38,146 nucleotides of DNA from Caldimonas sp. Its GTDB lineage: Bacteria > Pseudomonadota > Gammaproteobacteria > Burkholderiales > Burkholderiaceae_C. The notes beneath the pieces were generated by a model. The model was given only the letters and a program-made list of their open reading frames with translations. It had not been told where the DNA came from and did not search any database. A program made the translations under genes and the position numbers. Positions within the stretch are counted from its first letter, which is position 1. Every line of letters starts with the position of its first letter. Below are positions 4,443 to 23,653 of this stretch, piece after piece. The stretch lies in contig DASXXO010000155.1 in the NCBI GenBank assembly GCA_036503045.1, forward strand, positions 1 through 38,146, given 5' to 3'.

Positions 4443-4458
4443 CAGCAAAGGAGAGCGC

Positions 4459-5502: not shown

Positions 5503-5525
5503 GCATGCACGACACCGCGCGAGAG

Positions 5526-5628
5526 CGGGACGGTGGGGCGCTCCACGCTGCTCATGTCCCCCGAAGCCGGCCGGCGGCCGACTCCTCCTCCTCCTCTATT
5601 TCGCTGCGCAGAACGCCCCATCGTCCCG
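5526..5628. repeat. MITE/REP-like element with 18-bp imperfect terminal inverted repeats
   Basis: CGGGACGGTGGGGCGCTC (5526-5543) pairs with GAACGCCCCATCGTCCCG (5611-5628) at 16/18 positions. Internal ATGTCCCCCG...CTCCTCCTCTATTTCGCTGCG core. Confidence 0.6.
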
Positions 5629-5695
5629 ACCCTGCAGCGTCGTTGCCCCGCGGCTCTCCGCTGCTGGCTCGCGCCGACCGTCGAGCCGCAACCTC

Positions 5696-6406
5696 ATGAA
5701 CAAACACCCGCGCGTTGTCAATGCCGATCCGTACCCGTGGCCGTACGACGGCGACCTGCGCCCCGCCAACACCGCGCTCGTCGTCATCGACATGCAGACA
5801 GACTTCTGCGGCGCCGGCGGATATGTCGACAAGATGGGCTACGACCTGGTTCTCACGCGCGCGCCGATCGAGCCGATCAAGCGGCTCATGGCGCGCATGC
5901 GGGCGCTCGGCTTCCACGTCATCCACACGCGCGAAGGACATCGGCCCGACCTCTCGGACCTGCCGGCGAACAAGCGCTGGCGCTCGCGCCGAATTGGCGA
6001 AGGCGGGCGCGGGATCGGCGACGCGGGACCGTGCGGCCGCATCCTCGTGCGCGGCGAACCAGGCTGGGAGATCGTCCCCGAGCTCGCCCCGCTCGCCGGC
6101 GAAGTTGTCATCGACAAGCCCGGCAAGGGATCGTTCTGCGCGACCGACCTCGAGCTCGTCCTGCGCACGCGCGGCATCACGAACCTGCTCCTCGCCGGCA
6201 TCACCACCGACGTCTGCGTCTCGACGACGATGCGCGAGGCGAACGACCGCGGCTTCGAGTGCCTCGTCCTCGCCGACTGCACCGCCGCGACCGACCGCGG
6301 CAACCACCTCGCGGCGCTCAAGATGGTGACGATGCAGGGCGGCGTGTTCGGGGCGGTCGCCTCGTCGTCGGCGGTGCTCGAGGCGCTCGGGAGCCGGGGC
6401 GGATGA
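5696..6406 (+). CDS. biuH: Biuret amidohydrolase (isochorismatase-like cysteine hydrolase)
   Basis: [11 protein letters not shown]-terminus; Asp-Lys-Cys triad ([20 protein letters not shown]); BiuH-type signature residues [21 protein letters not shown]. Confidence 0.9.
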
Positions 6407-8043
6407 CCGCGCCGCTCGACCCCGTCCCGCCGCCGACCGGCGCGCTCGCGCTCGAGACGTTCGAGCTCACCAAGCGCTTCGGCGCGTTCACGGCGATGGA
6501 CCGCGTGACCATGACGGTCGCCGCCGGCTCGGTGCACGCGCTGCTCGGCGAGAACGGCGCCGGCAAGAGCACGCTCGTGAAGTGCGTCGCCGGCTCGCAG
6601 CGGCCCGACGGCGGCGCGATCGTCATCGACAGGCGAGAGCGCGACATCGCGACGCCGGTCGTCGCGCGCGCGCTCGGCATCGGCATGGTCTACCAGCACT
6701 TCACGCTCGCGCCCAACATGACGGTCGCCGAGAACCTGCTGCTCGCCGGCGGCCGCACGCCGGCGCTGATCGACTGGACGAGCGCGCGCGCCGAGCTGCG
6801 CGCGTTCCTCGCGACGACGCCGTTCTCGCTCTCGCTCGACGCGACGCCCGCATCGCTCTCGGCGGGCGAGAAGCAGAAGCTCGAGCTGCTGAAGCAGCTC
6901 TACCTCAAGCCGCGCCTCCTGATCCTCGACGAGCCGACCTCGGTGCTGACGCCGCAGGAGGCCGACGAGGTGCTCGCGTTCGTGCGCGCCGTCGCGCAGC
7001 GCGGCGAGTGCACGGTGCTCATGATCACGCACAAGTTCCGCGAGGTGATGGCGTACGCCGACGAGGTCACGGTGCTCCGGCGCGGCCGCAAGGTGCACGG
7101 CGCCGCGGTCGCCTCGACGACGCCGGCCGAGCTTGCGCTGGCGATGATCGGCGCAGGGGATGAGGGCGCGGCGGCGGCAGTGATCGACGAAGGGCACGCG
7201 GTCGCGCGCGTGCCGACCGACGCCAAGGCTGCACTCGCGCTCGAGGTCGCCGGCCTGGTCGCGATGGGCGATCGCGGCGCGATCGCCGTGCACGGCCTGT
7301 CGCTCGCGGTCCGGCGCGGCGAGATCCTCGGCATCGCCGGCGTCTCTGGCAACGGGCAGCGCGAGCTGATCGAGGCGATCGTCGGTCAGCGCCCGCGCAC
7401 GGCGGGCACGGTGCGCGTCGTCGGCCGTTCGTACGCCGGGCGGCGCTCGGAGAACCGCGAGCTGGGCTTGCGCGCGCTGCCCGAGGAGCCTTTGCGCAAC
7501 GCGAGCGTCGGCGAGCTGAGCGTCGCCCAGAACATGGCCCTGCGCGACTTCGACGAGCCGCCGCTGCGGCGCGCCCTGCTGCCCGGGCTCGCGTGGCTCC
7601 GCTTCGCCGCCTGGCGCGCGCGCGCGCGCGAATGGATCGCCGCGTACGGGATCAAGACGCGCAGCGAAAACGCGCCGATCGCGAGCCTTTCGGGCGGCAA
7701 CGTGCAGCGCGCGGTGCTCGCGCGCGAGCTCGCTGGCGAAGGCAACGTGCTGATCGCCGTCAACCCGGTGTTCGGCCTCGACTTCGCCGCCGTGCGCGAG
7801 ATCCATGCACGGATCCTGCAGGTGCGCGCGCGCGGCGCGGCGGTGCTGCTCGTGAGCGAGGACCTCGACGAGCTGCTCGAGCTCTCGGACCGCATCGCCG
7901 TCATGAGCGAAGGCCGGATCGTCTTCGAGACACCGGCCGCGGGCGCCGACCGGCGGACGATCGGCGCGCACATGGGCGGCGGCGAGCACCACGACGGCGC
8001 TGCCGCGCCCGCACTGGTGCAACGGCTCGCCGAGGCAGCATGA
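6403..8043 (+). CDS. ABC transporter ATP-binding protein (two ABC domains, CUT2 type)
   Basis: Start ATG 6403 overlaps the biuH stop (ATGA). [23 protein letters not shown]; second domain GVSGNGQ, LSGGNVQ. Confidence 0.92.
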
Positions 8044-8717
8044 AGACCTTCCACCTCGCGGCGACGCCGCTCGCATTCGACTTCCCGTCCGGGCGCACGG
8101 CGCTCGTGGTCATCGACATGCAGCGCGATTTCATCGAGCCGGGCGGCTTCGGCGCCTCGCTCGGCAACGACGTGCGCCGGCTGCAACCGTCGAACGCGCC
8201 GATCGCCGCGCTGCTCGCCGCCTGGCGCGCGCGTGACTGGCCGATCGTCCACACGCGCGAGGCGCACAGGGCGGACCTCGCCGACTGCCCGCCCGCCAAG
8301 CGCCTGCGCGGCAATCCGAGCCTGCGCATCGGCGACCCGGGCCCGATGGGCCGCGTGCTGATCGCCGGCGAGCCCGGCGCCGACATCATCCCGGCGCTCG
8401 CGCCGCACGATGGCGAGCTCGTCGTCGACAAGCCGGGCAAGGGAATGTTCTGGGCCACCGGCCTGCACGAGACCCTGCAGGCGCGCGCCATCTCGCACCT
8501 GGTCTTCACCGGCGTGACCACCGAAGTCTGCGTGCAGACCTCGATGCGCGAGGCGAACGACCGCGGCTACACGTGCCTGCTCGTCGAGGACGCGACCGGA
8601 AGCTACTTCCCGCAGTTCAAGCGCTGGACGCTGGCGATGATCGCCGCGCAGGGCGCGATCGTCGGCTGGCACGCGCAGTCGGCGGCGATCCTCGAGGCGA
8701 TCGAAGCGACGGGCTGA
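8040..8717 (+). CDS. trtA: Triuret hydrolase (isochorismatase-like cysteine hydrolase)
   Basis: ATGA overlap with the ATPase stop. Triad IDMQRDF, DKPGKG, TTEVC; TrtA-type signature residues [23 protein letters not shown], which differ from the BiuH copy at every diagnostic position. Confidence 0.87.
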
Positions 8718-8824: not shown

Positions 8825-9703
8825 ATGCCCGAGCTGCCCGATGTCAGCGTCTATCTCGAGCGGCTCAATGCCAAGGTCGTCGGCCAGCGCCTCGAGCGCG
8901 TGCGGATCGGCCACCCGTTCCTGCTTCGCTCCGTGACGCCGCCGATCTCCGCAATCGAGGGCAAGGTGGTGGTCGGCGTCGAGCGGCTCGGCAAGCGCAT
9001 CGTGCTCGCGTTCGATGGCGAGCTCTTCATGGTCGTGCATCTGATGATCGCCGGCCGGCTGCGCTGGCTCGCTCCAGGCAAGAAGACCGCGCCCAATGCG
9101 CTCGCCTTCTTCGAGTTCGCGACCGGCACGCTCGCGCTCACCGAGGCGGGCAAGCAGCGGCGTGCGTCGCTCCACGTCGTCGCCGGCCGTGGCGCGCTCG
9201 CGGCGCTCGACGCCGGTGGAATCGACGTGATGACGGCGTCGCGCGACGCGTTCGCTGCGCGCCTCACGGCCGAGAACCACACCGTCAAGCGCGCGCTCAC
9301 CGACCCGCGCCTCTTCAGCGGCATCGGCAACGCGTACTCCGACGAGATCCTGCATCGCGCGCGGCTCTCGCCGCTCGCGCTGACGCGCTCGCTCGACGAG
9401 GCGACGATCGACCGCCTGTTCGCTGCGACCACGTCGACGCTCGCCGAATGGACCACGAGGCTCCTGCGCGAGGCAGGCGACTGGCCGGCCAAGGTCACCG
9501 CATTCCATCCGGCGATGGCGGTGCACGGCCGCTTCGGCCAGCCGTGTCCCGACTGCGGCGCTCCGGTGCAGCGCATCGTTCACGCAGACAACGAGACGAA
9601 CTACTGCGCGCGCTGCCAGACCGGAGGCAAGGTACTCGCCGACCGTGCGCTCTCGAAGCTCTTGAAGAGCAGCTGGCCGAAGCACATCGACGAGCTGCTT
9701 TGA
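8825..9703 (+). CDS. Fpg/Nei-family DNA glycosylase (MutM-like paralog)
   Basis: N-terminal MPELPDV (catalytic Pro/Glu), RLGKR, HLMIAG, H2TH motif [11 protein letters not shown], zinc finger CPDC...CARC. Confidence 0.9.
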
Positions 9704-9720
9704 GCGGCGGCCTGCCGCTC
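9702..9720. terminator. GC hairpin between convergent fpg-like gene and dps
   Basis: GAGCGGC-GGCCT-GCCGCTC; no U-tract. Confidence 0.35.
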
Positions 9721-9726
9721 GCGCCG

Positions 9727-10196
9727 CAACTCGAGCAGGCTGCGCAGCATCCAGGCGGTCTGCTCGTGCACACCGAGGCGCTGCGTCAAGAGGTCCGCGG
9801 TCGGCTCGTCGCCGGCTTTCGCGGCGAGCGGGAAGATGCCGCGCGCGGTGCGCGCCACGGCCTCGTGTCCGTCGACCAGGATGCGCACCATGTCGAGCGC
9901 CGCCGGCGGCGACTCGGGGACGTCCTTGATCGAGCTGAGGCGGCCGAACTGCGCATACGAGCCGGGGGCGGGATGGCCGAGCGCGCGGATACGCTCGGCC
10001 ACCGGATCGACCGCGTTCCAGAGCTCGGTGTACTGCTCCATGAACATCAGGTGCAGCGTGTTGAACGTCGGCCCGGTCACGTTCCAGTGAAAGTTGTGGG
10101 TCGTCAGGTAGAGCGTGTAGGTGTCGGCGAGCCGCTTCGACAGGCCACCGGCGATGGCGGCGCGGCCGGCCTCGTCGCGGGGGCGGGTTGCGCCAT
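9727..10196 (-). pseudogene. dps: Dps (DNA starvation/stationary-phase protection protein), frameshifted near the 5' end and lacking its stop codon
   Basis: Dps core [21 protein letters not shown]...AERIRALG...DEPTADLL...[13 protein letters not shown]. The nearest ATG (10196) is out of frame and stops after ~30 codons. TTG at 9727-9729 sits where the stop is expected, so the frame reads into the convergent gene. Confidence 0.75.
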
Positions 10197-10253
10197 GTTT
10201 TTTGTTCCGCGAGGAGAGGGATGAAACGGTAGCGCCGTTGGCGGCGGAAGCGG

Positions 10254-10290
10254 ATCGTTTTTGCCAAGCGCCGGGATAGACAGAGGGTTG
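10254..10290. promoter_or_regulatory. Putative OxyR-binding site upstream of dps
   Basis: ATCG-N7-CAAG-N7-ATAG-N7-GTTG versus consensus ATAG-N7-CTAT-N7-ATAG-N7-CTAT (10/16, exact spacing). It lies 22 nt upstream of a -10-like TACCGT (minus strand, 10226-10231). Confidence 0.4.
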
Positions 10291-10391
10291 CCCCAGAGGA
10301 CGTCGTCCGCCGGAATCCACCACAATCGTTCGCTGCGCGTCGAGACCGCAGGCGGTCGGCGCCCGGCCCCGCGCAATGGACGGAATTCGCC

Positions 10392-11276
10392 ATGTTGGAA
10401 TACAACCAAGACAAGCTCACCGCGGACGCGCTCGCGGTCTACGAGAAGACGCGCGATCCGCGCCTGCGCGAGATCATGAAATCGCTGGTCAAGCACCTGC
10501 ACGCGTTTGCGCGCGAGGTCGACCTGACCCCCGAAGAGTGGCTCGAGGGCATCCGCTTCGTCACCAGGACCGGGCAGATCTCGACCGACAAGCGCCCCGA
10601 GTTCATCCTCCTGTCGGACGTGCTCGGCCTGTCGATGATGGTCGTCTCGCTGCAGCAGGCGCGAGCGAGCGGCGGCGCGAAGGGCGCGACCGAAGCGACC
10701 GAGGCGACCGTCGAAGGGCCGTTCTACTGGCCCGGCGCTCCCGACGTCGCGCTCGGCACCGACATCGGCGAAGGCGTCCCGGGCGAGCCGGCGTTCTACT
10801 CGGGGCGCATCACCGACCTCGACGGCAAGCCGCTCGCCGGTGCGCTGCTCGACGTCTGGTCGGGCGACGGCGACGGCAAGTACGACCTGCAGCTCTCGGC
10901 CGAGCCGACGATGCGTGCGCGCGGGCGCTTTCGCACCGACGGCGAGGGCCGCTACTGGTTCTGGTCGATCCGGCCGACGTTCTATCCGGTGCCGGTCGAC
11001 GGGCCGGTCGGCGAGATGATGCGCGCGACCGACCGCAGCATCTACCGGCCGGGGCACATCCACATGATGGTCTCCGCCGTTGGCCACGTTCCGCTGACGA
11101 CGCACATCTTCGTCGCCAACAGCCCCTACATCGACGAGGACGTGGTATTCGGCAAGCGCGACAGCCTGGTCGTCGACTTCGCGAAGCATGCACCCGGCAA
11201 GGCGCCCGACGGACGCGAGATGACGGCGCCGTACCACTCGGCGAGCTACGACTTCCGCCTCGCGCCGACGCCGTGA
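10392..11276 (+). CDS. Intradiol ring-cleavage dioxygenase (hydroxyquinol 1,2-dioxygenase-like)
   Basis: [39 protein letters not shown]; Fe ligands Tyr (GKYD), Tyr (FYPVP), His-x-His (RPGHIH). Confidence 0.9.
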
Positions 11277-12079
11277 AGATCGGCAAGGCGACGGTGCCGC
11301 GCACCGCAATCTCGACCTCCGACGAGCACACGATCGTCGTGCGCGGGCGCGACCTCTCGAAGGAGCTGATCGGCAAGGTCTCGTTCGTCGAGCACTTCTT
11401 CCTGCTCCTCACCGGGAAGCTCCCGTCCGCCGGCGAAGCGGCAGTGCTGAACGCGACGCTGGTAGCGATCGCCGACCACGGCCTCGTGCCGAGCGTGCAG
11501 GCGGCGCGCATGACCTTCGCCGCCGCGCCCGACGCGATGCAGGGCGCGGTCGCGGCCGGGATTCTCGGCTGCGGCTCGGTCGTCCTCGGCTCCTCCGAGA
11601 CCGCGGGCCGCATGTACAGCGAGATCGACGCCGAAGTGCGATCGGGCAAGGCGATCGACGTCGCCGCGCTCGACGTGATGCGCGCGTGGCGCGCCGCCGG
11701 CCGGGCGATCCCCGGCTACGGTCACCCCCTGCACAAGGAGCGCGATGCGCGCGTCGGCGCGCTATTCGACGTCGCGCGTGCAGCCGGAACCGACCTGCGC
11801 TTCGTCGCCATCGCCGAGGCGGCCGAGGCGGCGATTCCCGCGCTCCTGAAGAAGGACCTGAAGCTCAACGTCTCGGGCGCGATTCCCGCAGTGCTGCTCG
11901 GCGCCGGCTTTCCGGTCGAGGCGCTGAAGGGCGTGCCGATCCTCGCCCGCACGGCCGGGCTGATCGCGCACCTCTACGAGGAGATCGGCCAGCCGATCGG
12001 CTTCGCGCTCTCGTACCAGGCGACGCGCGAGATGGAATACGACGGCGCGCTGCCGGCCGGCTTTGGCCGCCACGCGTGA
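11273..12079 (+). CDS. Citryl-CoA lyase-like protein (citrate synthase fold)
   Basis: GTG start overlapping the previous stop (GTGA). IVVRGRDL, DHGLVPS, IPGYGHP, LNVSGAI, ARTAGLIAH motifs. Confidence 0.82.
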   Translation: MKIGKATVPRTAISTSDEHTIVVRGRDLSKELIGKVSFVEHFFLLLTGKLPSAGEAAVLNATLVAIADHGLVPSVQAARMTFAAAPDAMQGAVAAGILGCGSVVLGSSETAGRMYSEIDAEVRSGKAIDVAALDVMRAWRAAGRAIPGYGHPLHKERDARVGALFDVARAAGTDLRFVAIAEAAEAAIPALLKKDLKLNVSGAIPAVLLGAGFPVEALKGVPILARTAGLIAHLYEEIGQPIGFALSYQATREMEYDGALPAGFGRHA

Positions 12080-12089
12080 GCGCGTCGCC

Positions 12090-13247
12090 ATGACGAAGGT
12101 CCTGGAAGGGATCAAGGTCGTCGAGCAGGGAACGTTCATCACCGGCCCCGCGTGCGGGATGTTGCTCGGCGATCTCGGCGCCGACGTGGTCAAGGTCGAG
12201 CAGCCGGGCAGCGGCGATCCGTTTCGCGCCTTCAAGGGCGGCCTCTACAGCCCGCACTTCCAGACCTACAACCGCAACAAGCGCAGCATCACGCTCGACT
12301 CGAAGAACGCCGACGACCGCGCCGTTCTCGACGCACTGATCGGCCAGGCCGACGTCTACATCCAGAACTTTCGACCCGGGGTTGCCGAGAAGCTCGGCGT
12401 CGGCGCCGTGCGCCTGCGCGCGCTCAACCCGCGCCTCGTCTACGCCTCGATCAGCGGCTTCGGCGCGAGCGGCCCGGCGGCGGCGCGGCCCGCGTACGAC
12501 ACCGTTGCGCAGGCGGCGAGCGGGTTCCTGAAGCTCCTCGTCAACCCCGAGAACCCGCGCGTCGTCGGGCCGGCGATCGCCGATGCGCTGACCGGGTTCT
12601 ACGCCGCCTACGGCGTGCTCGGCGCGCTTGTCGAACGCGGCCGCACGGGAGTCGGCCGCACGGTCGAGGTGTCGATGCTCGAGGCGATGGCGCACTTCAA
12701 CCTCGACGCGTTCACGCACTACTTCCAGGCCGACGAGGTGATGGGCCCGTACAGCCGGCCGCGCGTCTCGCAGTCGTACGTGCTCGAATGCGGCGATGGC
12801 AAGTGGATCGCGCTGCACATGTCGTCGCCCGAGAAGTTCTGGCAGGGTCTGGCGCAGGCGATCGAGCAGCCCGGCCTGTTCGACGACGCGCGCTTCGCGA
12901 CGCGCCAGGCACGGATCGAACACCAGGAGGCGCTGATCGAGCTGCTCGGCGCCAAGTTCGCGAAGCGCACGCGCGCCGAATGGTGCGAGCGGCTCGAGCG
13001 GCTCGACGTGCCGCACGCGCCGATGTACGACACCAGCGAGGCGCTGCTCGACCCGCAAGCGGTGCACCTGCAGCTCACGGCCTCGGCCGAGCACCCGGTG
13101 ATGGGGCTCTTCAGGACCGTGCGCTCGCCGGTGTCATTCGACGGCGAGCGCGCGCTCGACGTGCGGCCGCCGCCGATGCTCGGCGAGCACGGCGACGAGA
13201 TCCGGCGCGAACTGCAGAATTCCCAACGAAGGAGACAAGCCCCATGA
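12090..13247 (+). CDS. CaiB/BaiF (family III) CoA-transferase
   Basis: LEGIKVVE, GPACGMLLGDLGADVVKVE, NRNKRSITLD, QNFRPG, ISGFG, catalytic Asp in AIADAL. Confidence 0.92.
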   Translation: MTKVLEGIKVVEQGTFITGPACGMLLGDLGADVVKVEQPGSGDPFRAFKGGLYSPHFQTYNRNKRSITLDSKNADDRAVLDALIGQADVYIQNFRPGVAEKLGVGAVRLRALNPRLVYASISGFGASGPAAARPAYDTVAQAASGFLKLLVNPENPRVVGPAIADALTGFYAAYGVLGALVERGRTGVGRTVEVSMLEAMAHFNLDAFTHYFQADEVMGPYSRPRVSQSYVLECGDGKWIALHMSSPEKFWQGLAQAIEQPGLFDDARFATRQARIEHQEALIELLGAKFAKRTRAEWCERLERLDVPHAPMYDTSEALLDPQAVHLQLTASAEHPVMGLFRTVRSPVSFDGERALDVRPPPMLGEHGDEIRRELQNSQRRRQAP

Positions 13248-14458
13248 AGATCGACACCTTCTTCTCGCGCCGCGCGATGCTCGGCACTGCGCTGCTTGCG
13301 CTCGCCGCGCTCACTCCGCTCGCATCGGCTCAGCCCGCCGGCCAGCCGGTTCGCATCGGCAGCACGCTCGCGCTCACTGGCCCGCTCGCGGCGACGGCGC
13401 AGATCCACAGAATCGTCGGCGAGATCTACGTCGAGCAGCTCAACAAGCGCGGCGGCCTGCTCGGCCGGCCGGTCGAGTGGATCGTCAAGGACGACCAGAG
13501 CAAGCCCGATCTCGCGCGCACGCTTTACGAGCAGCTCATCACCGCCGACAAGGTCGACCTGCTGATGGGCCCGTACGCCACCGGCGCGATCCTCTCGGCG
13601 ATGGGCGTCGCCCAGCGCTACAACAAGGTGCTCGTCCACCACACGCTCGGAATTCCGTCGCTCGCCAAGTACGAAATGCAGTTCCCGGCCTGGTCGCTCG
13701 GCTCCGATCCGGCGACGACGGTTCCGAACACGCTCTTCGATGCGCTCGCCGCCGGGCCGAAGCCGCCGAAGACGGTCGCAGTCCTCACCAACAAGTTCCC
13801 GTCGATCCAGTTCATGACCGCCGGCGCGCGCGAGGTGCTGAAGAAGCGCGGCCTCACGGAGGTGCTGTTCCTCGAGTGGGACTTCGGCAACCGCGACTTC
13901 GGCCCGATCGCCAACCGTGTCAAGGACGCCAAGCCCGACTTCGTCTGGGTCGGCGCGATCGGCCTCGACGGCAACCTGCTGCTCGACGCGATGAAGAAGA
14001 TCGACTACGTGCCGCCGCAGCATTTCTATCTCTACCCGGCGCCGGGGCCGCTGGTCGCGCTGCCGGAGGCGAAGAACGCGCTCTCGGTGACGATCTTCGA
14101 GGAGCAGCCGCCGTTCACCTCCAACCCGGGCGCCGCCGAGTTCGTCAAGCTTTACCGCGAGCGCGCGACGAAGGCGGGCCTCGCCGATCCCTCGGTGGAA
14201 ACGCAGGCAGCTGCGTCGTATACCGCCTGGCAGATCCTCGAGGCGGGCGTCAACGCGACGAAGAGCCTCGACGACAAGGCGATCGCGACCTGGCTGAAAG
14301 CCAACCGCGTCGACACGATCCAGGGCAAGCTCCGCTTCGACGGCGTCGGCAACTTCGGCGACGACCTGATGCGCATCAAGCAGGTGCAGAACGGCCACTG
14401 GGTCGTCGTCTGGCCGAAGGAAGTGACCTCGGGCGGCGCCAAGCTGCTCGCTCCCTGA
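13244..14458 (+). CDS. Branched-chain amino acid (Liv/HAAT)-type ABC substrate-binding protein
   Basis: AGGAG SD and ATGA overlap. SRRAML signal, VRIGSTLALTG, GGLLGRPVE, DDQS, MGPY motifs. Confidence 0.9.
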   Translation: MKIDTFFSRRAMLGTALLALAALTPLASAQPAGQPVRIGSTLALTGPLAATAQIHRIVGEIYVEQLNKRGGLLGRPVEWIVKDDQSKPDLARTLYEQLITADKVDLLMGPYATGAILSAMGVAQRYNKVLVHHTLGIPSLAKYEMQFPAWSLGSDPATTVPNTLFDALAAGPKPPKTVAVLTNKFPSIQFMTAGAREVLKKRGLTEVLFLEWDFGNRDFGPIANRVKDAKPDFVWVGAIGLDGNLLLDAMKKIDYVPPQHFYLYPAPGPLVALPEAKNALSVTIFEEQPPFTSNPGAAEFVKLYRERATKAGLADPSVETQAAASYTAWQILEAGVNATKSLDDKAIATWLKANRVDTIQGKLRFDGVGNFGDDLMRIKQVQNGHWVVVWPKEVTSGGAKLLAP

Positions 14459-14471
14459 GCGGCGCGCCGCG

Positions 14472-15338
14472 ATGTCGGCGTTCACGCTGCCGAGCCCCTC
14501 TCTGCTCGCGCAAAGCGTCCTCTCCGGCATCTTCGTCGGTGCGCTCTACGGCCTCCTCGGGCTCGGGCTGAGCCTCAGCTGGGGGCTGCTGCGCCTGATC
14601 AACCTCGCCCACTTCGCGTTCGCGTTCCTCGCCGCGTACCTCTGCCTGCAACTCGCGTCGATGGGCGTCGACCCGCTCCTGACGCTGGTCGCGATCGTGC
14701 CGGCGTTCTTCGCGCTCGGCGTCGCGCTGCACTGGGTGATGGCACGCTTTTCGGTGACGCCGTTCAACTCGCTGCTGCTGACGTTCGGCCTGATGGGAAT
14801 CGTCGAGGCGATCATCCAGTCGATCTGGACCGCCGACTTTCGCAAGCTCGAGTCTGTCTACGCGAACCAGAAGTTCAAGCTCGGCGCGCTGTTCGTGCCT
14901 CTGCCCGAGCTGATCACGCTGGTCCTCGCGCTCGGCCTCGCCGGTGCAGTGTGGGCGGTGCTGCGCTTCACCGACCTCGGCAAGGCGCTCCGCGCCGCCG
15001 CCGAGGACGGACCGATTGCGTCGGCCTTCGGCGTCAACCGCAAGCGCAACGCGTTGCTCCTCGCCGGCACCTGCTCCGCACTGGTCGGCATCGCGGGCGT
15101 GTGTCTTGCGCTCAGCTTCACGCTCGCTCCGTCGCAGATGTACGCCTGGATCGGCGTCGTCTTCGCCGCCGTGATGCTCGGCGGCCTGGGCAGCGCGCTC
15201 GGGCCGCTCATCGCCGGCACGCTGATCGGCGTCAGCGAGGCGGTGACGATGGCGGTGACCGCGCCGTCGTGGGCGCCGATCGTCTCGTTCACGCTCCTCA
15301 TCGTCGTGCTCGTCTTGCGGCCCGGGAAGGCGGCGTGA
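14472..15338 (+). CDS. Liv-type ABC permease (LivH-like)
   Basis: GALYGLLGLGLSLSWG..INLAH, TDLGKALRA, LGGLGS motifs. Confidence 0.9.
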   Translation: MSAFTLPSPSLLAQSVLSGIFVGALYGLLGLGLSLSWGLLRLINLAHFAFAFLAAYLCLQLASMGVDPLLTLVAIVPAFFALGVALHWVMARFSVTPFNSLLLTFGLMGIVEAIIQSIWTADFRKLESVYANQKFKLGALFVPLPELITLVLALGLAGAVWAVLRFTDLGKALRAAAEDGPIASAFGVNRKRNALLLAGTCSALVGIAGVCLALSFTLAPSQMYAWIGVVFAAVMLGGLGSALGPLIAGTLIGVSEAVTMAVTAPSWAPIVSFTLLIVVLVLRPGKAA

Positions 15339-17089
15339 GGCGCACGCCCCTTGTCATCGTCGGGGTTGCGCTGCTGCTGGCGTTCATTCCGCGCCTCGGG
15401 TTGCCGGCCTTCTACGACTCGCTGCTCTACCTCATGCTGCACTGGATCGTGCTCGCGACCTCGTGGAACATCCTGTCCGGATACACCGGCTACTTCTCGT
15501 TCGGCCACGGCGCGTTCTTCGGCGCGGGGCTGTACACGACGAGCACGCTGCTGGCGCGCTACGACTGGCCGTTCCTCTGGACCTTGCCGGTCGCCGCTGC
15601 CGTCGCCGCGGTGCTCGGGGTGGCGCTCGGCACGGTGGTCTTTCGCGTCCGGAGCGTGCGCGGCGAGCTGTTCGCGCTGCTTACGCTCGCGATCACCTTC
15701 GTTCTCGGCACGATCGTCGGCAACACGCCGATCGACGGCGGCCAGGGCGTGTCGCTGACGTCGGTTTCGGTGCCACACATCGGCCCGACGCCGTCGTCGA
15801 CCTTCTACCTGCTCGCGCTCGCCGCGGCGACGCTCACGCTGCTCGTCGCCTGGGCGATCTACGTCTCGCGCTTCGGCGCGGGCCTGTTCGCCATCCACGA
15901 CGACGAGGATGCCGCCGAGGTGATGGGTGTGCCGACCTACCGCTACAAGCTCGCTGCGCTTGCGATCTCGTGCGCGCTCGCCGGCACCGCCGGCGGCATC
16001 CATGCGCTGTTCCTGTCGTATGTGACGGTCGGCGAGGTGTTCACGATCACGGTACCGCTGACGGTCGTGTTGATGAGCGTGCTCGGCGGAACGCGCCACT
16101 GGGCCGGCCCGGCGATCGGCGCGGTCGCGATCACCGGCCTTCTCTACAGCTTCACCGCCGCCGACAACGCCCTCGCCGGCAAGGCCGCGATCGGCGCAAT
16201 CCTGATCGCTGCGATCCTGTTCATGCCCGACGGCATCCTGCCGCGCCTGCAGCGGGCGTTCCGGCGCCGCGCGCCAGCGAGCGCGGCGGTCGAGCGCCAG
16301 GCCATCGACACCGCCGCGCCGCCGCTCGCGACGCGCAGGACGGACGCGGAGACGCCAGCCGGCGAGGTCGTCTTGCGCGTCACCGGCCTGCACAAGCGAT
16401 TCAAGGGCGTGCGCGCGCTCGCCGGGGTCGAAGTCGAGGTGCGGCGCGGCGAGATCCTCGGCCTGCTCGGGCCGAACGGCTCAGGCAAGTCGACCTTCAT
16501 CAACGTCGTCAGCGGCCACTACGCCCCGACCGCGGGCGAGATCGTCTTCGAGGGCCACGCGCTCGAGCGCCGCGCCGCGCATCGCATCGCGGCCGCCGGA
16601 ATCGCGCGCACGTACCAGATCCCGCGCCCGTTTGCGCACATGAACGTGCGCGACAACGTCGCGCTGGCGGCGATGTTCGGCGCCGGCATCCGAAGCCCCA
16701 GCGCGGCGCGCGCCGAGGCGCGCCAATGGCTCGCGTTCACCGGCCTCGACGCCAAGGCCGACGCGCTGCCCGACGAGCTCAACCTGCATCAGCGCAAGTT
16801 CCTCGAGCTCGCGCGCGCGCTCGCGTCGCGGCCGCGCCTCGTGCTGCTCGACGAGGTGCTGTGCGGGCTGACGCCGAGCGAGATCGACGGTGCCGTCGCT
16901 CTGATCCGCAGGATCCGCGACCAGGGGTCGACGATCGTCTTCGTCGAGCACGTGATGCGCGCGGTGATGGCGCTCACCGACCGCGTCGTCGTCTTCCACC
17001 ACGGCGAGCTGCTCGCCGAGGGCCGCGCCGCCGACGTGATGCAGCGCCCCGAGGTGATGACCGCGTACCTCGGACGCGCCCATGCTTGA
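15335..17089 (+). CDS. Fused Liv-type ABC permease/ATP-binding protein (LivM-LivG)
   Basis: GTG start overlapping the previous stop. SWNILSGYTGYFSFGH permease half is in frame with the GPNGSGKST / LLDE / VEH ATPase half. Confidence 0.88.
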   Translation: MRRTPLVIVGVALLLAFIPRLGLPAFYDSLLYLMLHWIVLATSWNILSGYTGYFSFGHGAFFGAGLYTTSTLLARYDWPFLWTLPVAAAVAAVLGVALGTVVFRVRSVRGELFALLTLAITFVLGTIVGNTPIDGGQGVSLTSVSVPHIGPTPSSTFYLLALAAATLTLLVAWAIYVSRFGAGLFAIHDDEDAAEVMGVPTYRYKLAALAISCALAGTAGGIHALFLSYVTVGEVFTITVPLTVVLMSVLGGTRHWAGPAIGAVAITGLLYSFTAADNALAGKAAIGAILIAAILFMPDGILPRLQRAFRRRAPASAAVERQAIDTAAPPLATRRTDAETPAGEVVLRVTGLHKRFKGVRALAGVEVEVRRGEILGLLGPNGSGKSTFINVVSGHYAPTAGEIVFEGHALERRAAHRIAAAGIARTYQIPRPFAHMNVRDNVALAAMFGAGIRSPSAARAEARQWLAFTGLDAKADALPDELNLHQRKFLELARALASRPRLVLLDEVLCGLTPSEIDGAVALIRRIRDQGSTIVFVEHVMRAVMALTDRVVVFHHGELLAEGRAADVMQRPEVMTAYLGRAHA

Positions 17090-17786
17090 GGTCCACGAGC
17101 TCCAGGTCTGGTACGGGGCGGCGCCGGCGCTCTGGGGCGTCTCGCTCGCGCTGCGCGCCGGCGAGCTGCTCTCGGTCGTCGGCCCGAATGGCGCCGGCAA
17201 GTCGACGCTCATCAACGCGATCGCCGGGATCGAGCCGGCGCGCGCCGGGCGCATCGTCTTCGCCGGCAAGGACATCACGCGTTGGCCACCGCATCGCTTC
17301 TGCGCCGCCGGCATCGCCGTCGTTCCGGAAGGGCGGCGCCTCTTCAGCGGCATGACGGTGCGCGAGAACCTCGAGCTCGGCAGCTACCTTCCGGCCGCCA
17401 AGGCCGAGCGCGCCGCGTCGCTCGACGCCGCGCTCGAGCTCTTCCCCGCGCTGCGCGAGAGGCTCGCCAGCCCAGCCGGCGAGCTTTCGGGCGGCCAGCA
17501 GCAGATGGTGGCGATCGCGCGCGCGCTGATGGCGCGGCCGCGCCTGCTGCTGCTCGACGAGCCGTCGCTCGGCCTGTCGCCCCTCATCGTCGAAGCCATG
17601 TTCGACGCGGTGCGCCGCATCAACGCGCAAGGCGTCGCGGTGCTGCTCGTCGAGCAGAACGTGGCGATGGCGATGTCGCTCTCGGACCGCGCCTACGTGC
17701 TCGAGGAAGGTCGTATCGTTGCCGAAGGCGAGCCGGACGACCTGCTCGCGCGCCCCGAGATCCAGCGCGCCTACCTCGGCGTCTGA
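17082..17786 (+). CDS. Liv-type ABC ATP-binding protein (LivF-like)
   Basis: GPNGAGKST, VPEGRRLF, LSGGQQQM, LLLDEPSLGL, VEQN. Confidence 0.92.
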   Translation: MLEVHELQVWYGAAPALWGVSLALRAGELLSVVGPNGAGKSTLINAIAGIEPARAGRIVFAGKDITRWPPHRFCAAGIAVVPEGRRLFSGMTVRENLELGSYLPAAKAERAASLDAALELFPALRERLASPAGELSGGQQQMVAIARALMARPRLLLLDEPSLGLSPLIVEAMFDAVRRINAQGVAVLLVEQNVAMAMSLSDRAYVLEEGRIVAEGEPDDLLARPEIQRAYLGV

Positions 17787-17826
17787 CGCGCCGGCTTGCG
17801 ATCGCAATCCATCGGAGATTCGAGCC

Positions 17827-18864
17827 ATGCTCTTTCCCACCACCATCGTCGGCAGCTTTCCCCAGCCCGAATGGCTGATCGACCGCGCCAGGCTCGCCGG
17901 GCGCTTTCCGCCGCGCGTGCGCGCCAGGGAGCTCTGGCGCGTCGCCCCCGAGTTCCTCGCCGAAGCGCAGGACGACGCGACCCTGATCGCGATCCGCGCG
18001 CAGGAGGAGGCCGGCCTCGACATCGTCAGCGACGGCGAGATCCGGCGCGAGAGTTACTCGAACCGCTTCGCGACCGCACTCGAAGGCGTCGATCTCGACA
18101 ACCCGGGCAGCGCGCTCGACCGCTCGGGGCATCCGAACCCGGTGCCGCGCATCGTCGGCACCATCCGGCGCAAGCACCCGGTCGAGGTCGGCGACCTCGA
18201 GTTCCTGCGCCGCCACACGACGCGCCAGACCAAGATCACCGTGCCCGGCCCGTTCACGATGCTGCAGCAGGCGCAGAACGACTTCTACGCAAGCGAGGAG
18301 GAGGCGGCGATGGACTACGCCGCCGCGGTGAACGAGGAGATCAAGGACCTCTTCGCAGCCGGCGCCGACGTCGTCCAGATCGACGAGCCGTACATGCAGG
18401 CGCGGCCCGAGAAGGCGCGCCGCTACGGCCTGCAGGCGCTCAACCGCGCGCTCGACGGCATCACCGGGACGACGGCGGTCCATATCTGCTTCGGCTACGC
18501 GGCGATCATCCACGAGCGGCCGAGCGGCTACTCTTTCCTCCCCGAGCTCGCGCAGTGCAGCTGCCGCCAGGTCTCGCTCGAGACGGCGCAGTCGAAGCTC
18601 GACTGCTCGGTGCTCGAATCGCTCGGCGGCAAGAAGCTGATGGTCGGCTGCATCGACCTCGCCGATCCCGCGGTCGAGTCGGCGGAGACGGTGGTCGCGC
18701 GGATCGAGCGCGCGCTGCCGTTCGTCGCGTCCGAGAACGTCATCCTCGCGCCCGACTGCGGCATGAAGTACCTGCCGCGCGCGACGGCTGTCGGCAAGCT
18801 GCGGGCGATGGTCGAGGCAGCGAAGATCCTGCGCGCGCGCCATGCGCGCACGGCCAACGCCTGA
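17827..18864 (+). CDS. Cobalamin-independent methionine synthase II family protein (MetE C-terminal/catalytic domain only)
   Basis: TTIVGSFPQP, AGLDIVSDGEIRR, VQIDEP; Zn ligands HIC(FG), E and PDCG. About 345 aa with no N-terminal folate-binding barrel. Confidence 0.85.
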   Translation: MLFPTTIVGSFPQPEWLIDRARLAGRFPPRVRARELWRVAPEFLAEAQDDATLIAIRAQEEAGLDIVSDGEIRRESYSNRFATALEGVDLDNPGSALDRSGHPNPVPRIVGTIRRKHPVEVGDLEFLRRHTTRQTKITVPGPFTMLQQAQNDFYASEEEAAMDYAAAVNEEIKDLFAAGADVVQIDEPYMQARPEKARRYGLQALNRALDGITGTTAVHICFGYAAIIHERPSGYSFLPELAQCSCRQVSLETAQSKLDCSVLESLGGKKLMVGCIDLADPAVESAETVVARIERALPFVASENVILAPDCGMKYLPRATAVGKLRAMVEAAKILRARHARTANA

Positions 18865-18871
18865 CGGCGCG

Positions 18872-19326
18872 GTGGGCGAGTTCGTCTTCGCGAGCCGATT
18901 GCCGCGCGTCGTCTTCGGCGCCGGCGCGCTGCGCCACCTGCCGCGTGAGCTCGAGGCGCTCGGCATCGCGCGCGCACTCGTGCTCTCGACGCCGGGCCAG
19001 CGCGCGCTCGGCGAGCGAGTCGCCGCGCTGCTCGGCGCGCGCAGCGCCAGCGTGTTCGCGCAGGCGGCGATGCACGTGCCGGCGGAGACCGCACGCGTCG
19101 CGTGCGACGAGGCGTGCCGCGTCGGCGCCGACGGTGCGGTCGTGATCGGCGGTGTTCGACCTCGGCGCCCGCCATAGCGCGCCGACCTCGCTCGCCGCGA
19201 TCGGCATACGCGCCGAGAGCCTCGACCGCGCCGCCGATCTTGCGCTACAGAACGAATATCCGAACCCACGCCGGCGCGATCCGCGCGCTCCTGCAGCGCG
19301 CGTTCGACGGCGCGCGCCCGGCCCGA
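18872..19326 (+). pseudogene. Maleylacetate reductase remnant (large internal deletion plus frameshifts)
   Basis: N-terminus RVVFGAG...ALVLSTPGQ...AAMHVP...GADGAVVIGG joins out of frame at ~19153 to the C-terminus FDLGARHSAPTSLAAIG..LDRAADLA..YPNPR, then shifts again to AIRALLQRAFDGARP. Confidence 0.85.
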
Positions 19327-19348: not shown

Positions 19349-20275
19349 CTACTCGGTCAGCCGATGGACGCCCTTCAGCGGGCACGCGTAGATGGCGTTC
19401 CTCAGCGCCGCAATCGCCTCGTAGCGCGTGAAGCTGCGCCGCCACGCGACGACGACGCGGCGCGTCGGCACCGGCTTGGTGAACGGCACGTAGGCGATGT
19501 GCGGCTGCTCCTCGTCGGGCACCGAGAGCTGCGGGACGACGGTGACGCCCATCCCCGAAGCCACCATGTACTTGATCGTCTCGAGCGACGATCCTTCGAA
19601 GGTCTTGCGGATGCCCTCGGCATCGGCCGGCGCGAACTGCGCGTATTCGGGGCAGACCTCGAGCACGTGGTCGCGGAAGCAGTGACCCGTGCCGAGCAGC
19701 AGCATCTTCTCGGTCTTGAGCTCCTCGGCGCCGATCGCCTTGCGCTTGGCGAGCGGATGCGTCTTCGGCACCGCGACGACGAACGGCTCGTCGTAGAGCG
19801 GCGCGATCGCGAGGCCGGTGTCGGGAAATGGCTCGGCCATGATTGCCGCGTCGAGCTCGCCCGCGCGCAGCAGCTCGAGCAGCTTGGCGGTGAAGTTCTC
19901 CTGCAGCACGAGCGGCATCTGCGGGACGCGTTCGATCGCCTGGCGCACGAGCTCGGGCAGCAAGTACGGGCCGATGGTGTAGATCACCCCGAGCGAGAGC
20001 GGCCCGTTCAGCGGATCCTTCCTGCGCTTGGCGGTCTCCCTGATCTGCGCCGCCTGCTCGATGACCGCTTGCGCCTGGCGCACGATCTCCTCGCCGATCG
20101 GCGTCACACTCACCTCGTTGGCGCCGCGCTCGAAGATGCGCACGTCGAGCTCTTCCTCGAGCTTCTTGATCGACACCGAGAGCGTCGGCTGCGAAACGAG
20201 GCAGGCCTCGGCGGCGCGCCCGAAATGCTTCTCGCGCGCGACCGCGACGACGTATCGGAGCTCGGTCAGAGTCAT
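19349..20275 (-). CDS. oxyR: Hydrogen peroxide-inducible genes activator OxyR (LysR family)
   Basis: LysR HTH HFGRAAEACLVSQPTLS; redox Cys pair GHCFRDHVLEVC; EGSSLETI; downstream of recG. Confidence 0.93.
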   Translation of the reverse strand: MTLTELRYVVAVAREKHFGRAAEACLVSQPTLSVSIKKLEEELDVRIFERGANEVSVTPIGEEIVRQAQAVIEQAAQIRETAKRRKDPLNGPLSLGVIYTIGPYLLPELVRQAIERVPQMPLVLQENFTAKLLELLRAGELDAAIMAEPFPDTGLAIAPLYDEPFVVAVPKTHPLAKRKAIGAEELKTEKMLLLGTGHCFRDHVLEVCPEYAQFAPADAEGIRKTFEGSSLETIKYMVASGMGVTVVPQLSVPDEEQPHIAYVPFTKPVPTRRVVVAWRRSFTRYEAIAALRNAIYACPLKGVHRLTE

Positions 20276-21595: not shown

Positions 21596-23653
21596 CTAGG
21601 CGTTCAGGTAGTCGGCGCGGCCGCCGAGCCAGCGCTCGATGTGGCGCAGCGCGGCCTCGGGATCTTGCTCCAGCAGACGCTCGGCCGCACGCCGCGCTTC
21701 GATGACGAGCGACTCGTCGAGCACCGGATCTGCGAAGCGCAGCAGCGCTGCGCCCGATTGTCGCGCGCCGAGGAACTCGCCCGGGCCGCGGATCGCGAGA
21801 TCGCGGCGCGAGATCTCGAAGCCGTCGTCGGTCTCGAGCATCGCCTTCAGGCGCTCCTTCGCGGTGTCGGAGAGCGGCGCGCTGTAGAGGAGCACGCAGA
21901 CGCTCGCCGTGCTGCCCCGCCCGACCCGGCCGCGCAACTGGTGCAGCTGGGAGAGGCCGAAGCGCTCCGCGTGCTCGACGACCATCAGCGACGCGTTCGG
22001 CACGTCGACGCCGACCTCGATCACCGTCGTCGCGACCAGGACGGCGATCTGGCCACCAGCGAAGAGCGACATCGCCGCCGCCTTCTCGGCGGCCGGCATG
22101 CGCCCGTGCAGGAGGCCGATCATCCGGCCGGGCAGCGCTGCGCACAGTTCGGCGTGGGTCGCGGTGGCGTTCTTGAGGTCGAGGGCCGCCGACTCGTCGA
22201 CCAGCGGGCAGACCCAGTAGGTCTGCCGGCCGCGCGCCGCCTCGTCGCGGATGCGCGCGATCACCTCGTCGCGGCGCGCGTCGCCAAAGAGCTTGGTGAC
22301 GACGGGCGTGCGGCCCGGCGGCAGCTCGTCGATCGTGCCGACGTCGAGGTCGGCGAACAGCGTCATCGCGAGCGTGCGCGGGATCGGCGTCGCGCTCATC
22401 ATCAGCAGATGCGGCTCGAGCGCGCCCTGGTCGTCCAGCTTGGCCCGAAGTGCCAACCTCTGGGCGACGCCGAAGCGGTGCTGCTCGTCGATGATCGCGA
22501 GGCCGAGGCGCGCGAAGCGAACCTGCTCCTCGATCACCGCGTGGGTGCCGACGACGAGCCCGGCTTCGCCCGACGCCACCCGCGCGAGCATCTGCTCGCG
22601 CTTCTTCCCTTTGCGGCTGCCGGTCAGCCAGGCGATGGTGACGCCGAGCGGCGCGAGCCAGCCGACGAGCTTCTTCAGGTGCTGTTCGGCGAGGATCTCG
22701 GTCGGCGCCATCAGCGCGCACTGCCAGCCGGCGTCGATCGCGCGCGCCGCGGCGAGCGCGGCGACCACGGTCTTGCCCGAGCCGACGTCGCCCTGCAGCA
22801 GGCGATGCATCGGCACCGCGCGCGCGAGGTCGGCGTCGATCTCGGCGCCGACGTGCCGCTGCGCGCGCGTGAGCGCGAACGGCAGCGCGGCGAGCAGCGC
22901 GTCATGCAGCTTGCCGCGCGCCGGCGCCATTGCCGGCGCGCGCTGGCGCTCCCGCCGCGCGAGCAGCTGCGACAGCTGCTGCGCGAGCAGCTCCTCGAAC
23001 CTGAGGCGCTGCCATGTCGGATGCGATCGGTCCTCGATCGCCTCCGCCGCGAGCCCGGGCGGCGGCTCGTGCAGATGCGCGAGCGCATCGCGCAACGTCG
23101 GCAGGCCGGCCGGGACGATGCCGGGCGGCAGGTGCTCGTCGAGGTCGGCGCGCGCGCGGCCGGCGGCGACAGCCTTGCGCAGCGTCGCCTGCGAGAGCTG
23201 CACGGTGCTCGGATAGACCGGCGTCAGCGCGGTCGGCAAGGGCGTTTCCGGCGTCACGACCTTGAACGACGGATGGACCATCTCGACGCCGAAGAATCCG
23301 CCGCGTGCCTCGCCGCGCGCGCGCACGCGCTTGCCGACCGCGAGTGCCTTCTGCGCCGACGGGTAGAAGTGGAGAAAGCGCAGGACCAGGTCGCTGCTCT
23401 CGTCGGCGATCTTGACGACGAGCTGCCGGCGCGGCCGGAACTGGATGCGCGAATCGCTGACGACGCCTTCGACCTGGCCGGTGTCGCCGTCGCGCAGCGT
23501 GGCGATCGGCACGATGCGCGTCTCGTCCTCGTAGCGCAGCGGCAGGTGCAGCGCGAGGTCGATGTCGCGCACCAGGCCGAGCTTCGCGAGTGCCTGCTCG
23601 GGCGCCGTCGGCGCGGCGACGGGCTTGGGCGCGCGCCGCAAGGGGAGGGCCAT
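21596..23653 (-). CDS. recG: ATP-dependent DNA helicase RecG
   Basis: [60 protein letters not shown]. Start trimmed to ATG 23653. Confidence 0.97.

What the first reader, a model, noticed from the sequence alone, without database searches (positions are those of the whole stretch)
10392..19326. Orphan aromatic catabolic pathway: intradiol dioxygenase + citryl-CoA-lyase-like + CoA-transferase + ABC importer + MetE-like enzyme + maleylacetate reductase
Seen: nine tightly packed co-oriented genes, several with GTGA/ATGA overlaps. Established: hydroxyquinol 1,2-dioxygenase and maleylacetate reductase form the hydroxyquinol route, which normally ends via a family I 3-oxoadipate CoA-transferase and thiolase; neither is here. 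Instead there is a family III CoA-transferase paired with a citrate-synthase-fold lyase. Inference: an imported substrate or ring-cleavage product is CoA-activated and cleaved retro-aldol/Claisen-style, releasing acetyl-CoA. I know of no described pathway with this gene set.
Basis: partly seen in the sequence, partly recalled or inferred. Interest (0 to 1): 0.8.

Follow-up and report, generated by a model that had tools for sequence, protein, structure and literature searches.

The report
CoA-dependent ending for aromatic ring cleavage
A soil bacterium carries a gene cluster, conserved in many Proteobacteria, that pairs an aromatic ring-opening enzyme with a CoA-transferase and an altered citrate-synthase-like protein, which likely split the opened ring into acetyl-CoA and a four-carbon acid by a route I found in no paper searched; the usual next enzyme, maleylacetate reductase, is a broken gene here.

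Summary
Eight genes are intact as described. The ninth, maleylacetate reductase (MAR), is a pseudogene lacking about 620 bp; contigs from three separate soil studies carry the same deletion, and an intact paralog lies elsewhere in the genome. The cluster is conserved: among 80 related loci, 78 carry the CoA-transferase, 75 the dioxygenase, only 10 MAR. Nine of 20 cluster-bearing genomes had no MAR found. In more distant bacteria the CoA-transferase + citryl-CoA-lyase-like pair stays while the ring-opening enzyme switches among three unrelated classes (intradiol, LigAB-like, VOC hydroquinone-type). The lyase-like protein lacks the catalytic Asp (1 of 110 keep it), so it is no true citryl-CoA lyase. 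The MetE-like protein keeps all zinc and homocysteine residues. Best reading (about 0.5): a 2-substituted maleylacetate is CoA-activated and split to acetyl-CoA plus a maleate-type acid, bypassing MAR; a methoxy/hydroxy (syringyl- or phloroglucinol-type) substrate is the leading guess. Nothing is assayed. Ten literature searches found no description. This scan found sister clusters before on other DNA (LigAB-type and tandem-MetE versions).

The parts
10392..11276 (+). Hydroxyquinol-type intradiol dioxygenase, 294 aa
   Evidence: Best solved relatives 1TMX hydroxyquinol 1,2-dioxygenase (E 4e-75) and PnpC; Fe ligands Y164, Y198, H222, H224 plus R219 and D76 invariant in 84 of 84 homologs, H238 in 60 of 84; below catechol/chlorocatechol dioxygenase cut-offs
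11273..12079 (+). Citryl-CoA-lyase-like protein (NF004868 subfamily), 268 aa, catalytic Asp replaced by Ser201
   Evidence: NCBIfam above cut-off; model pLDDT 93, best fold match 6HXP citryl-CoA lyase, TM 0.82, 34% identity; alignment to 6HXP; residue counts
12090..13247 (+). Family III (CaiB/BaiF) CoA-transferase, 385 aa
   Evidence: PF02515 E 5e-106; D165 invariant in 99 of 99 (its role as the catalytic Asp is recalled); below every named equivalog cut-off; nearest solved: succinate-hydroxymethylglutarate CoA-transferase
13244..14458 (+). LivK/HAAT-type ABC substrate-binding protein, ligand unknown
   Evidence: PF13458; only weak solved relatives, E >= 5e-13; Atlas clusters carry only generic names
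14472..15338 (+). LivH-type permease
   Evidence: PF02653
15335..17089 (+). Fused LivM permease - LivG ATPase
   Evidence: PF02653 + PF00005
17082..17786 (+). LivF-type ATPase
   Evidence: PF00005, NF008626 below cut-off
17827..18864 (+). MetE catalytic-domain-only (core) zinc protein, 345 aa; not MesD
   Evidence: PF01717; nearest solved 3RPD MesD, 197 bits; zinc ligands H219, C221, E252 in 51 of 51, C311 in 50 of 51; S10, E71, D186 in 51 of 51, aligning to 3RPD S22, E73, D188; 256 bits against the NF006589 cut-off of 392
18872..19326 (+). Maleylacetate reductase pseudogene (about 620-bp internal deletion at about 19150, frame lost; further 11-bp gap at 19271)
10198..10391 (.). Intergenic region between dps and the dioxygenase; the divergent LysR gene found in relatives is missing, the last ~90 bp before the start codon are conserved
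   Evidence: no sigma-70 consensus found

Best explanation
The cluster likely imports an oxidation-prone hydroxylated benzene, opens its ring with the dioxygenase to a predicted 2-substituted maleylacetate, would attach CoA to the acetate end with the family III transferase, and likely splits the resulting 3-oxoacyl-CoA with the altered citrate-synthase-fold protein into acetyl-CoA and a maleate-type four-carbon acid, so that maleylacetate reductase is not needed. Shown: the genes, their conservation, the loss of the catalytic Asp, the broken MAR, the swapping partners. Inferred: every reaction. The leading substrate guess is a 1,2,3,5-tetra-oxygenated ring (6-methoxyhydroxyquinol or 1,2,3,5-tetrahydroxybenzene, from syringyl lignin or phloroglucinol), because this pattern lets all three dioxygenase classes seen beside the CoA pair give the same carbon chain. 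With a hydroxy substituent the products would be acetyl-CoA and oxaloacetate; with a methoxy substituent the MetE-like protein would move the methyl group of methoxymaleate to homocysteine, giving oxaloacetate and methionine. Versions that carry LeuCD instead would hydrate maleate or citraconate.
For: (1) CoA activation: 124 of 131 loci have CaiB (117), an AMP-ligase (2) or a PaaK-like ligase (5) within 9.5 kb (loci are not all independent). (2) Ring cleavage partner: 105 of 131 loci at the thresholds used, intradiol 83, VOC 14, LigAB-like 8, never two classes at once; intradiol and LigAB-like forms alternate inside one well-supported Rhizobiales clade of the lyase-like protein (8 rows, 100/99) in otherwise similar gene sets. 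The sphingomonad VOC partner has an H10/H88/E135 metal set and its best fold match is a VOC homogentisate (p-hydroquinone) 1,2-dioxygenase, 9U42, TM 0.77, 28% identity. p-Hydroquinone dioxygenases can give 2-substituted maleylacetates (PcpA to 2-chloromaleylacetate, abstract of PMC3204407). (3) MAR is dispensable: 10 of 80 loci, broken here, not found at E<=1e-50 in 9 of 20 cluster-bearing genomes, 8 of those 9 handles or records being large or near-complete. (4) LeuCD-type hydratase sits by the pair in 7 loci and never together with the MetE-like gene (55 loci); in the three genomes tested these are extra LeuC copies. LeuCD-type maleate hydratases are recalled (HbzIJ), not tested. (5) Quinone-handling neighbours (WrbA above cut-off, FMN reductases, YciI, nitroreductase) point to an auto-oxidising hydroquinone-type substrate. 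(6) Methoxy hints, from distant versions only: CYP199-like P450 in 6 loci, esterase-type hydrolases, PurU in L114, and intact homocysteine-binding residues of the MetE-like protein.
Against: No reaction is assayed and no substrate is identified. The residue that would replace the lost Asp is unknown (position 201 varies: S 100, N 6, T 2, A 1, D 1 of 110; H154 109 of 110 and C100 103 of 110 are only candidates). The Burkholderiales cluster has no hydroxylase or demethylase, so the methoxy hints do not come from this locus. The MetE-like gene also occurs without the CoA pair (L129, L130, L131, L144-L150), so it may serve a separate step. 26 of 131 loci show no ring-cleavage gene at threshold (some at contig ends, some with a distant dioxygenase, some truly without, e.g. 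Bordetella L084/L085/L090/L093), and PaaK-linked members may act on another substrate. 11 of 20 genomes tested do have a MAR elsewhere, and 10 loci keep an intact MAR in the cluster, which fits a canonical route running alongside. This copy has lost its LysR regulator and may be decaying.
Confidence: 0.5

Rival explanations
1. Canonical hydroxyquinol route with replaced end enzymes: MAR (encoded elsewhere) makes 3-oxoadipate, the family III transferase replaces PcaIJ, and the citrate-synthase-fold protein replaces the thiolase.
For: Dioxygenase is hydroxyquinol-type; intact MAR in 10 of 80 loci, elsewhere in 11 of 20 genomes and on C104 of this genome.
Against: No MAR found in 9 of 20 cluster-bearing genomes, including 0 of 5 sphingomonads; LigAB-like and VOC partners would not both lead to plain maleylacetate; the MetE-like and LeuCD genes are unexplained; the genome has its own family I CoA-transferase.
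Confidence: 0.15
2. True citryl-type retro-aldol: the ring-cleavage product (a 3-substituted muconate or its lactone) is CoA-activated and hydrated to a tertiary 3-hydroxyacyl-CoA, then cleaved to acetyl-CoA and an oxo acid; the MetE-like zinc protein or LeuCD would be the hydratase.
For: Fold and substrate-side residues H69, H151, R160, R226 match citryl-CoA lyase; the nearest solved transferase acts on hydroxymethylglutarate; TctC-type carboxylate binders in 55 of 131 loci.
Against: The Asp whose loss traps citryl-CoA in ATP-citrate lyase (titles of 6ZNW and the D1026A entries) is absent in 109 of 110; the MetE-like protein keeps amino-acid (homocysteine) binding residues, unlike a simple hydratase.
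Confidence: 0.15
3. CoA is attached to an aromatic acid before ring opening, and the citrate-synthase-fold protein acts on the aryl-CoA or releases CoA (thioesterase or decarboxylating step).
For: PaaK-like and AMP-ligase partners in 7 loci; citrate synthases hydrolyse a thioester (established).
Against: Versions without any dioxygenase pair the two genes with MFS/TctC importers and LeuCD (L101, L109, L126), which fits an imported aliphatic diacid; intradiol dioxygenases are not known to take CoA esters (recalled).
Confidence: 0.1
4. The pathway is already described in a paper outside the searchable library.
For: The library lacks most subscription journals; one relevant paper (PMC10880611) was not held; the cluster lies in well-studied genera (Variovorax, Cupriavidus, Aminobacter, sphingomonads).
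Against: Ten searches gave no description; NCBIfam 2026 and PDB 2026 name no close characterised member.
Confidence: 0.1

Closest known systems
Hydroxyquinol pathway (hydroxyquinol 1,2-dioxygenase 1TMX/PnpC/TsdC, maleylacetate reductase, 3-oxoadipate CoA-transferase, thiolase)
   Same: Hydroxyquinol-type intradiol dioxygenase; YciI and quinone reductase neighbours in relatives; a MAR gene at the end in 10 of 80 loci.
   Different: MAR is optional and broken here; no family I transferase or thiolase in the cluster; a family III transferase and a citrate-synthase-fold protein are the conserved core.
Citryl-CoA lyase of Hydrogenobacter thermophilus (6HXP) and the CCL module of ATP-citrate lyase
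   Same: Same fold (TM 0.82), 34% identity, conserved His69, His151, Arg160, Arg226.
   Different: Catalytic Asp replaced (Ser201), the SAHGG His motif is SVVLG, the Arg of the C-terminal KRL motif is missing; partner is a CoA-transferase in an aerobic catabolic cluster, not citryl-CoA synthetase.
MesD core methionine synthase (3RPD; Price et al. 2021, PMC7857596)
   Same: Catalytic domain only; zinc ligands and homocysteine-binding residues conserved.
   Different: 197 bits to 3RPD against the paper's 560-bit ortholog cut-off (set for another MesD query); no MesX gene in the window's cluster or among the neighbour families scanned; sits in catabolic clusters.
Family III CoA-transferase + lyase modules (citramalate, hydroxymethylglutarate, itaconate; recalled)
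   Same: Activate a diacid with CoA, then cleave off acetyl-CoA.
   Different: Those lyases have HMG-CoA-lyase or CitE folds; here the fold is citrate synthase and the substrate comes from ring cleavage.
Gentisate direct-hydrolysis route (maleylpyruvate hydrolase, then LeuCD-type maleate hydratase HbzIJ; recalled)
   Same: C-C cleavage of a maleyl-carbonyl to release maleate or citraconate, hydrated by a LeuCD-type enzyme, as in 7 related loci.
   Different: No CoA step there and the leaving piece is pyruvate; here acetyl-CoA is predicted.

Membership tests
Hydroxyquinol 1,2-dioxygenase | Intradiol fold with 2-Tyr/2-His iron site and active-site Arg | tested here: met
   Y164, Y198, H222, H224, R219 in 84 of 84; alignment to 1TMX
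Hydroxyquinol 1,2-dioxygenase | Closer to hydroxyquinol than to catechol dioxygenases; Asp and His pocket residues (signature recalled) | tested here: met
   256 bits to 1TMX against 124 to the best catechol dioxygenase; D76 84 of 84, H238 60 of 84; position 108 is Glu, not the Phe of 1TMX
Hydroxyquinol 1,2-dioxygenase | Cleaves hydroxyquinol to maleylacetate | not testable with these tools
   Needs an assay
Hydroxyquinol (MAR) pathway | Intact maleylacetate reductase in the pathway | tested here: not met
   Pseudogene in the window; 10 of 80 loci
Citryl-CoA lyase (EC 4.1.3.34) | Citrate-synthase/CCL fold | tested here: met
Citryl-CoA lyase (EC 4.1.3.34) | Catalytic Asp of the NVDG motif | tested here: not met
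   Ser201; Asp in 1 of 110 homologs, an outgroup member
Citryl-CoA lyase (EC 4.1.3.34) | Citryl-CoA synthetase or CitF partner | tested here: not met
   Partners are CaiB or acyl-CoA ligases in the loci examined
Family III CoA-transferase | PF02515 full length with conserved Asp | tested here: met
   no named subfamily reached
MesD methionine synthase | Zinc ligands and homocysteine-binding Ser/Glu/Asp | tested here: met
MesD methionine synthase | Score above the family cut-off | tested here: not met
   256 bits against 392 for NF006589
MesD methionine synthase | MesX (PF08908) partner in the genome | tested here: inconclusive
   Not found, but the genome is 68% complete and no control genome rang
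Maleylacetate reductase | Full-length Fe-ADH protein of about 350 aa | tested here: not met
   About 208 codons missing, frame lost

The most novel reading that the evidence does not exclude
A widespread, undescribed lower pathway for syringyl-lignin- or phloroglucinol-derived tetra-oxygenated benzenes: three unrelated dioxygenase classes converge on 2-hydroxy/2-methoxymaleylacetate, a citrate-synthase-fold enzyme without the catalytic Asp hydrolyses its CoA ester to acetyl-CoA and oxaloacetate (or its methyl enol ether), and a new core methionine synthase family captures the lignin methyl group directly on homocysteine, without folate or B12.
Probability: 0.2. Interest if true: 0.85.

Novelty: new variant of a known kind. 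Interest (0 to 1): 0.64.

Why it matters
It would be a new way to finish aerobic aromatic breakdown, free of NADH-dependent maleylacetate reduction and thiolase, in common soil and water Proteobacteria; it would give a function to a large family mis-annotated as citryl-CoA lyase or citrate synthase (which also confounds reverse-TCA predictions), a new reaction for the citrate-synthase fold, and possibly a methyl donor for an untested core methionine synthase family. Cultured strains (Variovorax, Rhizobacter Root404, Aminobacter MSH1, Cupriavidus) make it directly testable.

Tried and rejected
Assembly error as the cause of the MAR deletion: rejected, three studies' contigs cross the junction (one may be the source sample). 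Fusion evidence: 14 longer proteins join the lyase-like domain to CaiB, a ligase or the MetE-like domain, but the three looked up are singletons and the three read have out-of-frame-looking linkers, so they show adjacency only. Pinoresinol pathway as the upstream source for the sphingomonad P450/GMC/MBL genes: the Pin enzymes are of other families (PMC12607616, part 1 of section 4 and section 8). MesD identity: below cut-off. Ser201 as a nucleophile: not invariant. Binding-protein ligand: PDB and Atlas gave only generic family names. Two papers that name citryl-CoA lyase were irrelevant. Promoter scan found nothing. No complex prediction was run, as no binding is claimed.


Full report
Observation. 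The window is contig C155 of a 3.0-Mb, 68%-complete Burkholderiales metagenome-assembled genome; its nearest named relatives are labelled Caldimonas/Rhizobacter and runs holding the DNA are soil metagenomes. They lie between dps and oxyR with no shift in GC. The ninth gene is a maleylacetate reductase remnant: against the 363-aa ortholog of L055, residues 95 to about 302 are missing (about 620 bp at about 19150) and the frame is lost. Contigs from three of the four runs laid, each a different study, cross this junction; a further 11-bp gap at 19271 is not shared by two of them. None of 48 other genomes of the genus shows the joined form. An intact paralog (66%) is on C104, and a family I CoA-transferase on C348.

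Conservation among close relatives. The lyase-like protein was used to fetch the best 80 of 232 loci from GTDB genomes. Of the 80, 78 carry the CoA-transferase, 75 the dioxygenase (two cut by contig ends) and 10 a MAR. Of the 49 with at least 9 kb downstream: CaiB 49, dioxygenase 43, ABC binding protein 36, MetE-like 35, TctC 35, YciI 15, MAR 9. A divergent LysR gene is in 68 loci; it and TctC are missing from the window, and no close LysR ortholog was found in the incomplete genome. The usual layout is LysR(divergent)-dioxygenase-lyase-like-CaiB-[TctC]-ABC-MetE-like-[YciI]-[MAR or amidohydrolase].

What distant versions show. I examined 131 loci with a lyase-like hit of at least 42% identity (some come from the same or close genomes). 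124 have a CoA-activating neighbour: CaiB 117, AMP-ligase 2, PaaK-like 5; several of the seven without are cut by contig ends. 105 have a ring-cleavage gene at threshold: intradiol 83, single-domain VOC 14, LigAB-like 8, never two classes. In Rhizobiales, intradiol and LigAB-like genes alternate among clusters with the same other genes and within one supported clade of the lyase-like protein. The LigAB-like protein is a distant relative of gallate dioxygenase (E 4e-21; below all cut-offs). The VOC protein models with pLDDT 86 and matches 9U42, a VOC homogentisate 1,2-dioxygenase, best. Frequent extras are quinone/FMN reductases, YciI, Dabb, nitroreductase, esterase-type hydrolases, an amidohydrolase (NF006056) and, in six loci, a CYP199-like P450. 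LeuCD appears in 7 loci and never with the MetE-like gene; in the three genomes tested it is an extra copy. A MAR was found at E<=1e-50 in 11 of 20 cluster-bearing genomes and not in 9, including all 5 sphingomonads tested.

The two odd enzymes. The lyase-like protein has the citryl-CoA lyase fold (pLDDT 93; 6HXP, TM 0.82) and keeps H69, H151, D158, R160, N199 and R226 in 110 of 110 homologs, but the catalytic Asp position holds Ser in 100, Asn 6, Thr 2, Ala 1 and Asp in only one outgroup member. In ATP-citrate lyase, Asp-to-Ala mutants are used to trap citryl-CoA (entry titles), so this subfamily is not a true citryl-CoA lyase. H154 (109 of 110) and C100 (103 of 110) are subfamily-specific candidates for a new catalytic role. 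The MetE-like protein keeps the four zinc ligands and the three residues that bind the amino acid in MesD 3RPD (residue roles from passages of PMC7857596), but is far below the MesD cut-off. It is 79% identical to the copy beside a LigAB-like gene in Aminobacter, and also occurs without the CoA pair.

Mechanism. Hydroxyquinol dioxygenases give maleylacetate (established); p-hydroquinone dioxygenases give 2-substituted maleylacetates (PcpA, abstract of PMC3204407) and fungal ones cleave methoxy- and dimethoxyhydroquinone without demethylation (passages of PMC12420386). A gallate-type enzyme would give the same chain from a ring oxygenated at 1,2,3,5 (inference). CoA on the acetate end of such a product makes a 3-oxoacyl-CoA whose hydrate or lactol resembles citryl-CoA; cleavage yields acetyl-CoA and maleate, citraconate, methoxymaleate or oxaloacetate (inference). 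LeuCD fits the first two, a homocysteine methyl acceptor the third, and the fourth needs no further gene, which fits versions that have only dioxygenase, transferase and lyase. I put this at about 0.5, and the methoxy/hydroxy substrate with methyl capture at about 0.2. Against it: no assay, no upstream hydroxylase in this cluster, an unknown catalytic residue, MAR available elsewhere in over half of the genomes tested, and loci without any dioxygenase.

Literature and earlier findings. Ten full-text searches of the open library found no description: combinations of citryl-CoA lyase with hydroxyquinol, CaiB, intradiol or aromatic catabolism gave 0 papers; maleylacetyl-CoA, methoxymaleylacetate, methoxymaleate, hydroxymaleylacetate and dioxoadipyl gave 0; listings (40 of 98 seen) showed nothing on this cluster. 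Seen: PMC7857596 (passages), PMC12607616 (abstract, part 1 of section 4, section 8), PMC12420386 (passages), PMC11005374 and 10.1101/2024.10.02.616266 (passages, irrelevant), PMC3204407 (start of abstract in a listing); PMC10880611 was not held. Subscription papers and all supplements were not seen; RB-TnSeq tables in supplements could bear on the substrate. Earlier notes of this scan describe LigAB-type and tandem-MetE sister clusters on other DNA; they agree but are not independent evidence.

Verdict. A real, conserved, apparently undescribed CoA-dependent lower pathway for aromatic ring-cleavage products; this copy has lost its regulator and its reductase. New variant of a known kind; interest 0.64.

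Noticed in passing
window 3522-8717: ABC transporter genes with a carbon-nitrogen hydrolase and two isochorismatase-family proteins, likely an amide or biuret-type catabolic cluster, separate from the finding.
   Followed up: no
window 9601-10197 (-), 19349-20275 (-), 21599-23653 (-): dps, oxyR-like LysR and recG flank the cluster; the same neighbours occur in several Caldimonas/Rhizobacter-type loci, so the cluster is a settled chromosomal resident.
   Followed up: partly
L151, L152, L153: The lyase-like + CaiB pair sits with an SDR, a biotin carboxylase/carboxyltransferase set, a GMC oxidoreductase and an isochorismatase-family gene, without a dioxygenase: probably another substrate.
   Followed up: partly
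L130, L131, L146, L147, L150: The MetE-like gene (57-61%) occurs with an FAH-family hydrolase and a polysaccharide-deacetylase-family gene, with an intradiol dioxygenase in Roseomonas, and without the CoA pair; FAH may replace the CoA pair.
   Followed up: partly
L113, L115, L118, L134, L138, L140, L141: Sphingomonad versions carry a second, distant MetE-core gene (about 25% identical) next to the first.
   Followed up: partly
L107, L119, L162, L163, L164: A separate clade pairs the lyase-like gene with a PaaK-like ligase and GntR.
   Followed up: partly
L127: In Niveispirillum the cluster adjoins protocatechuate 4,5-cleavage genes (LigAB, LigC-like).
   Followed up: no
G000 C411, C195, C250: Three further MetE-domain genes in this genome (35%, 27%, 30% to the cluster copy).
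   Followed up: no
L106:1-546: A predicted aac(3) aminoglycoside acetyltransferase lies 8.5 kb from the cluster on the Martelella plasmid; unrelated to the pathway.
   Followed up: no
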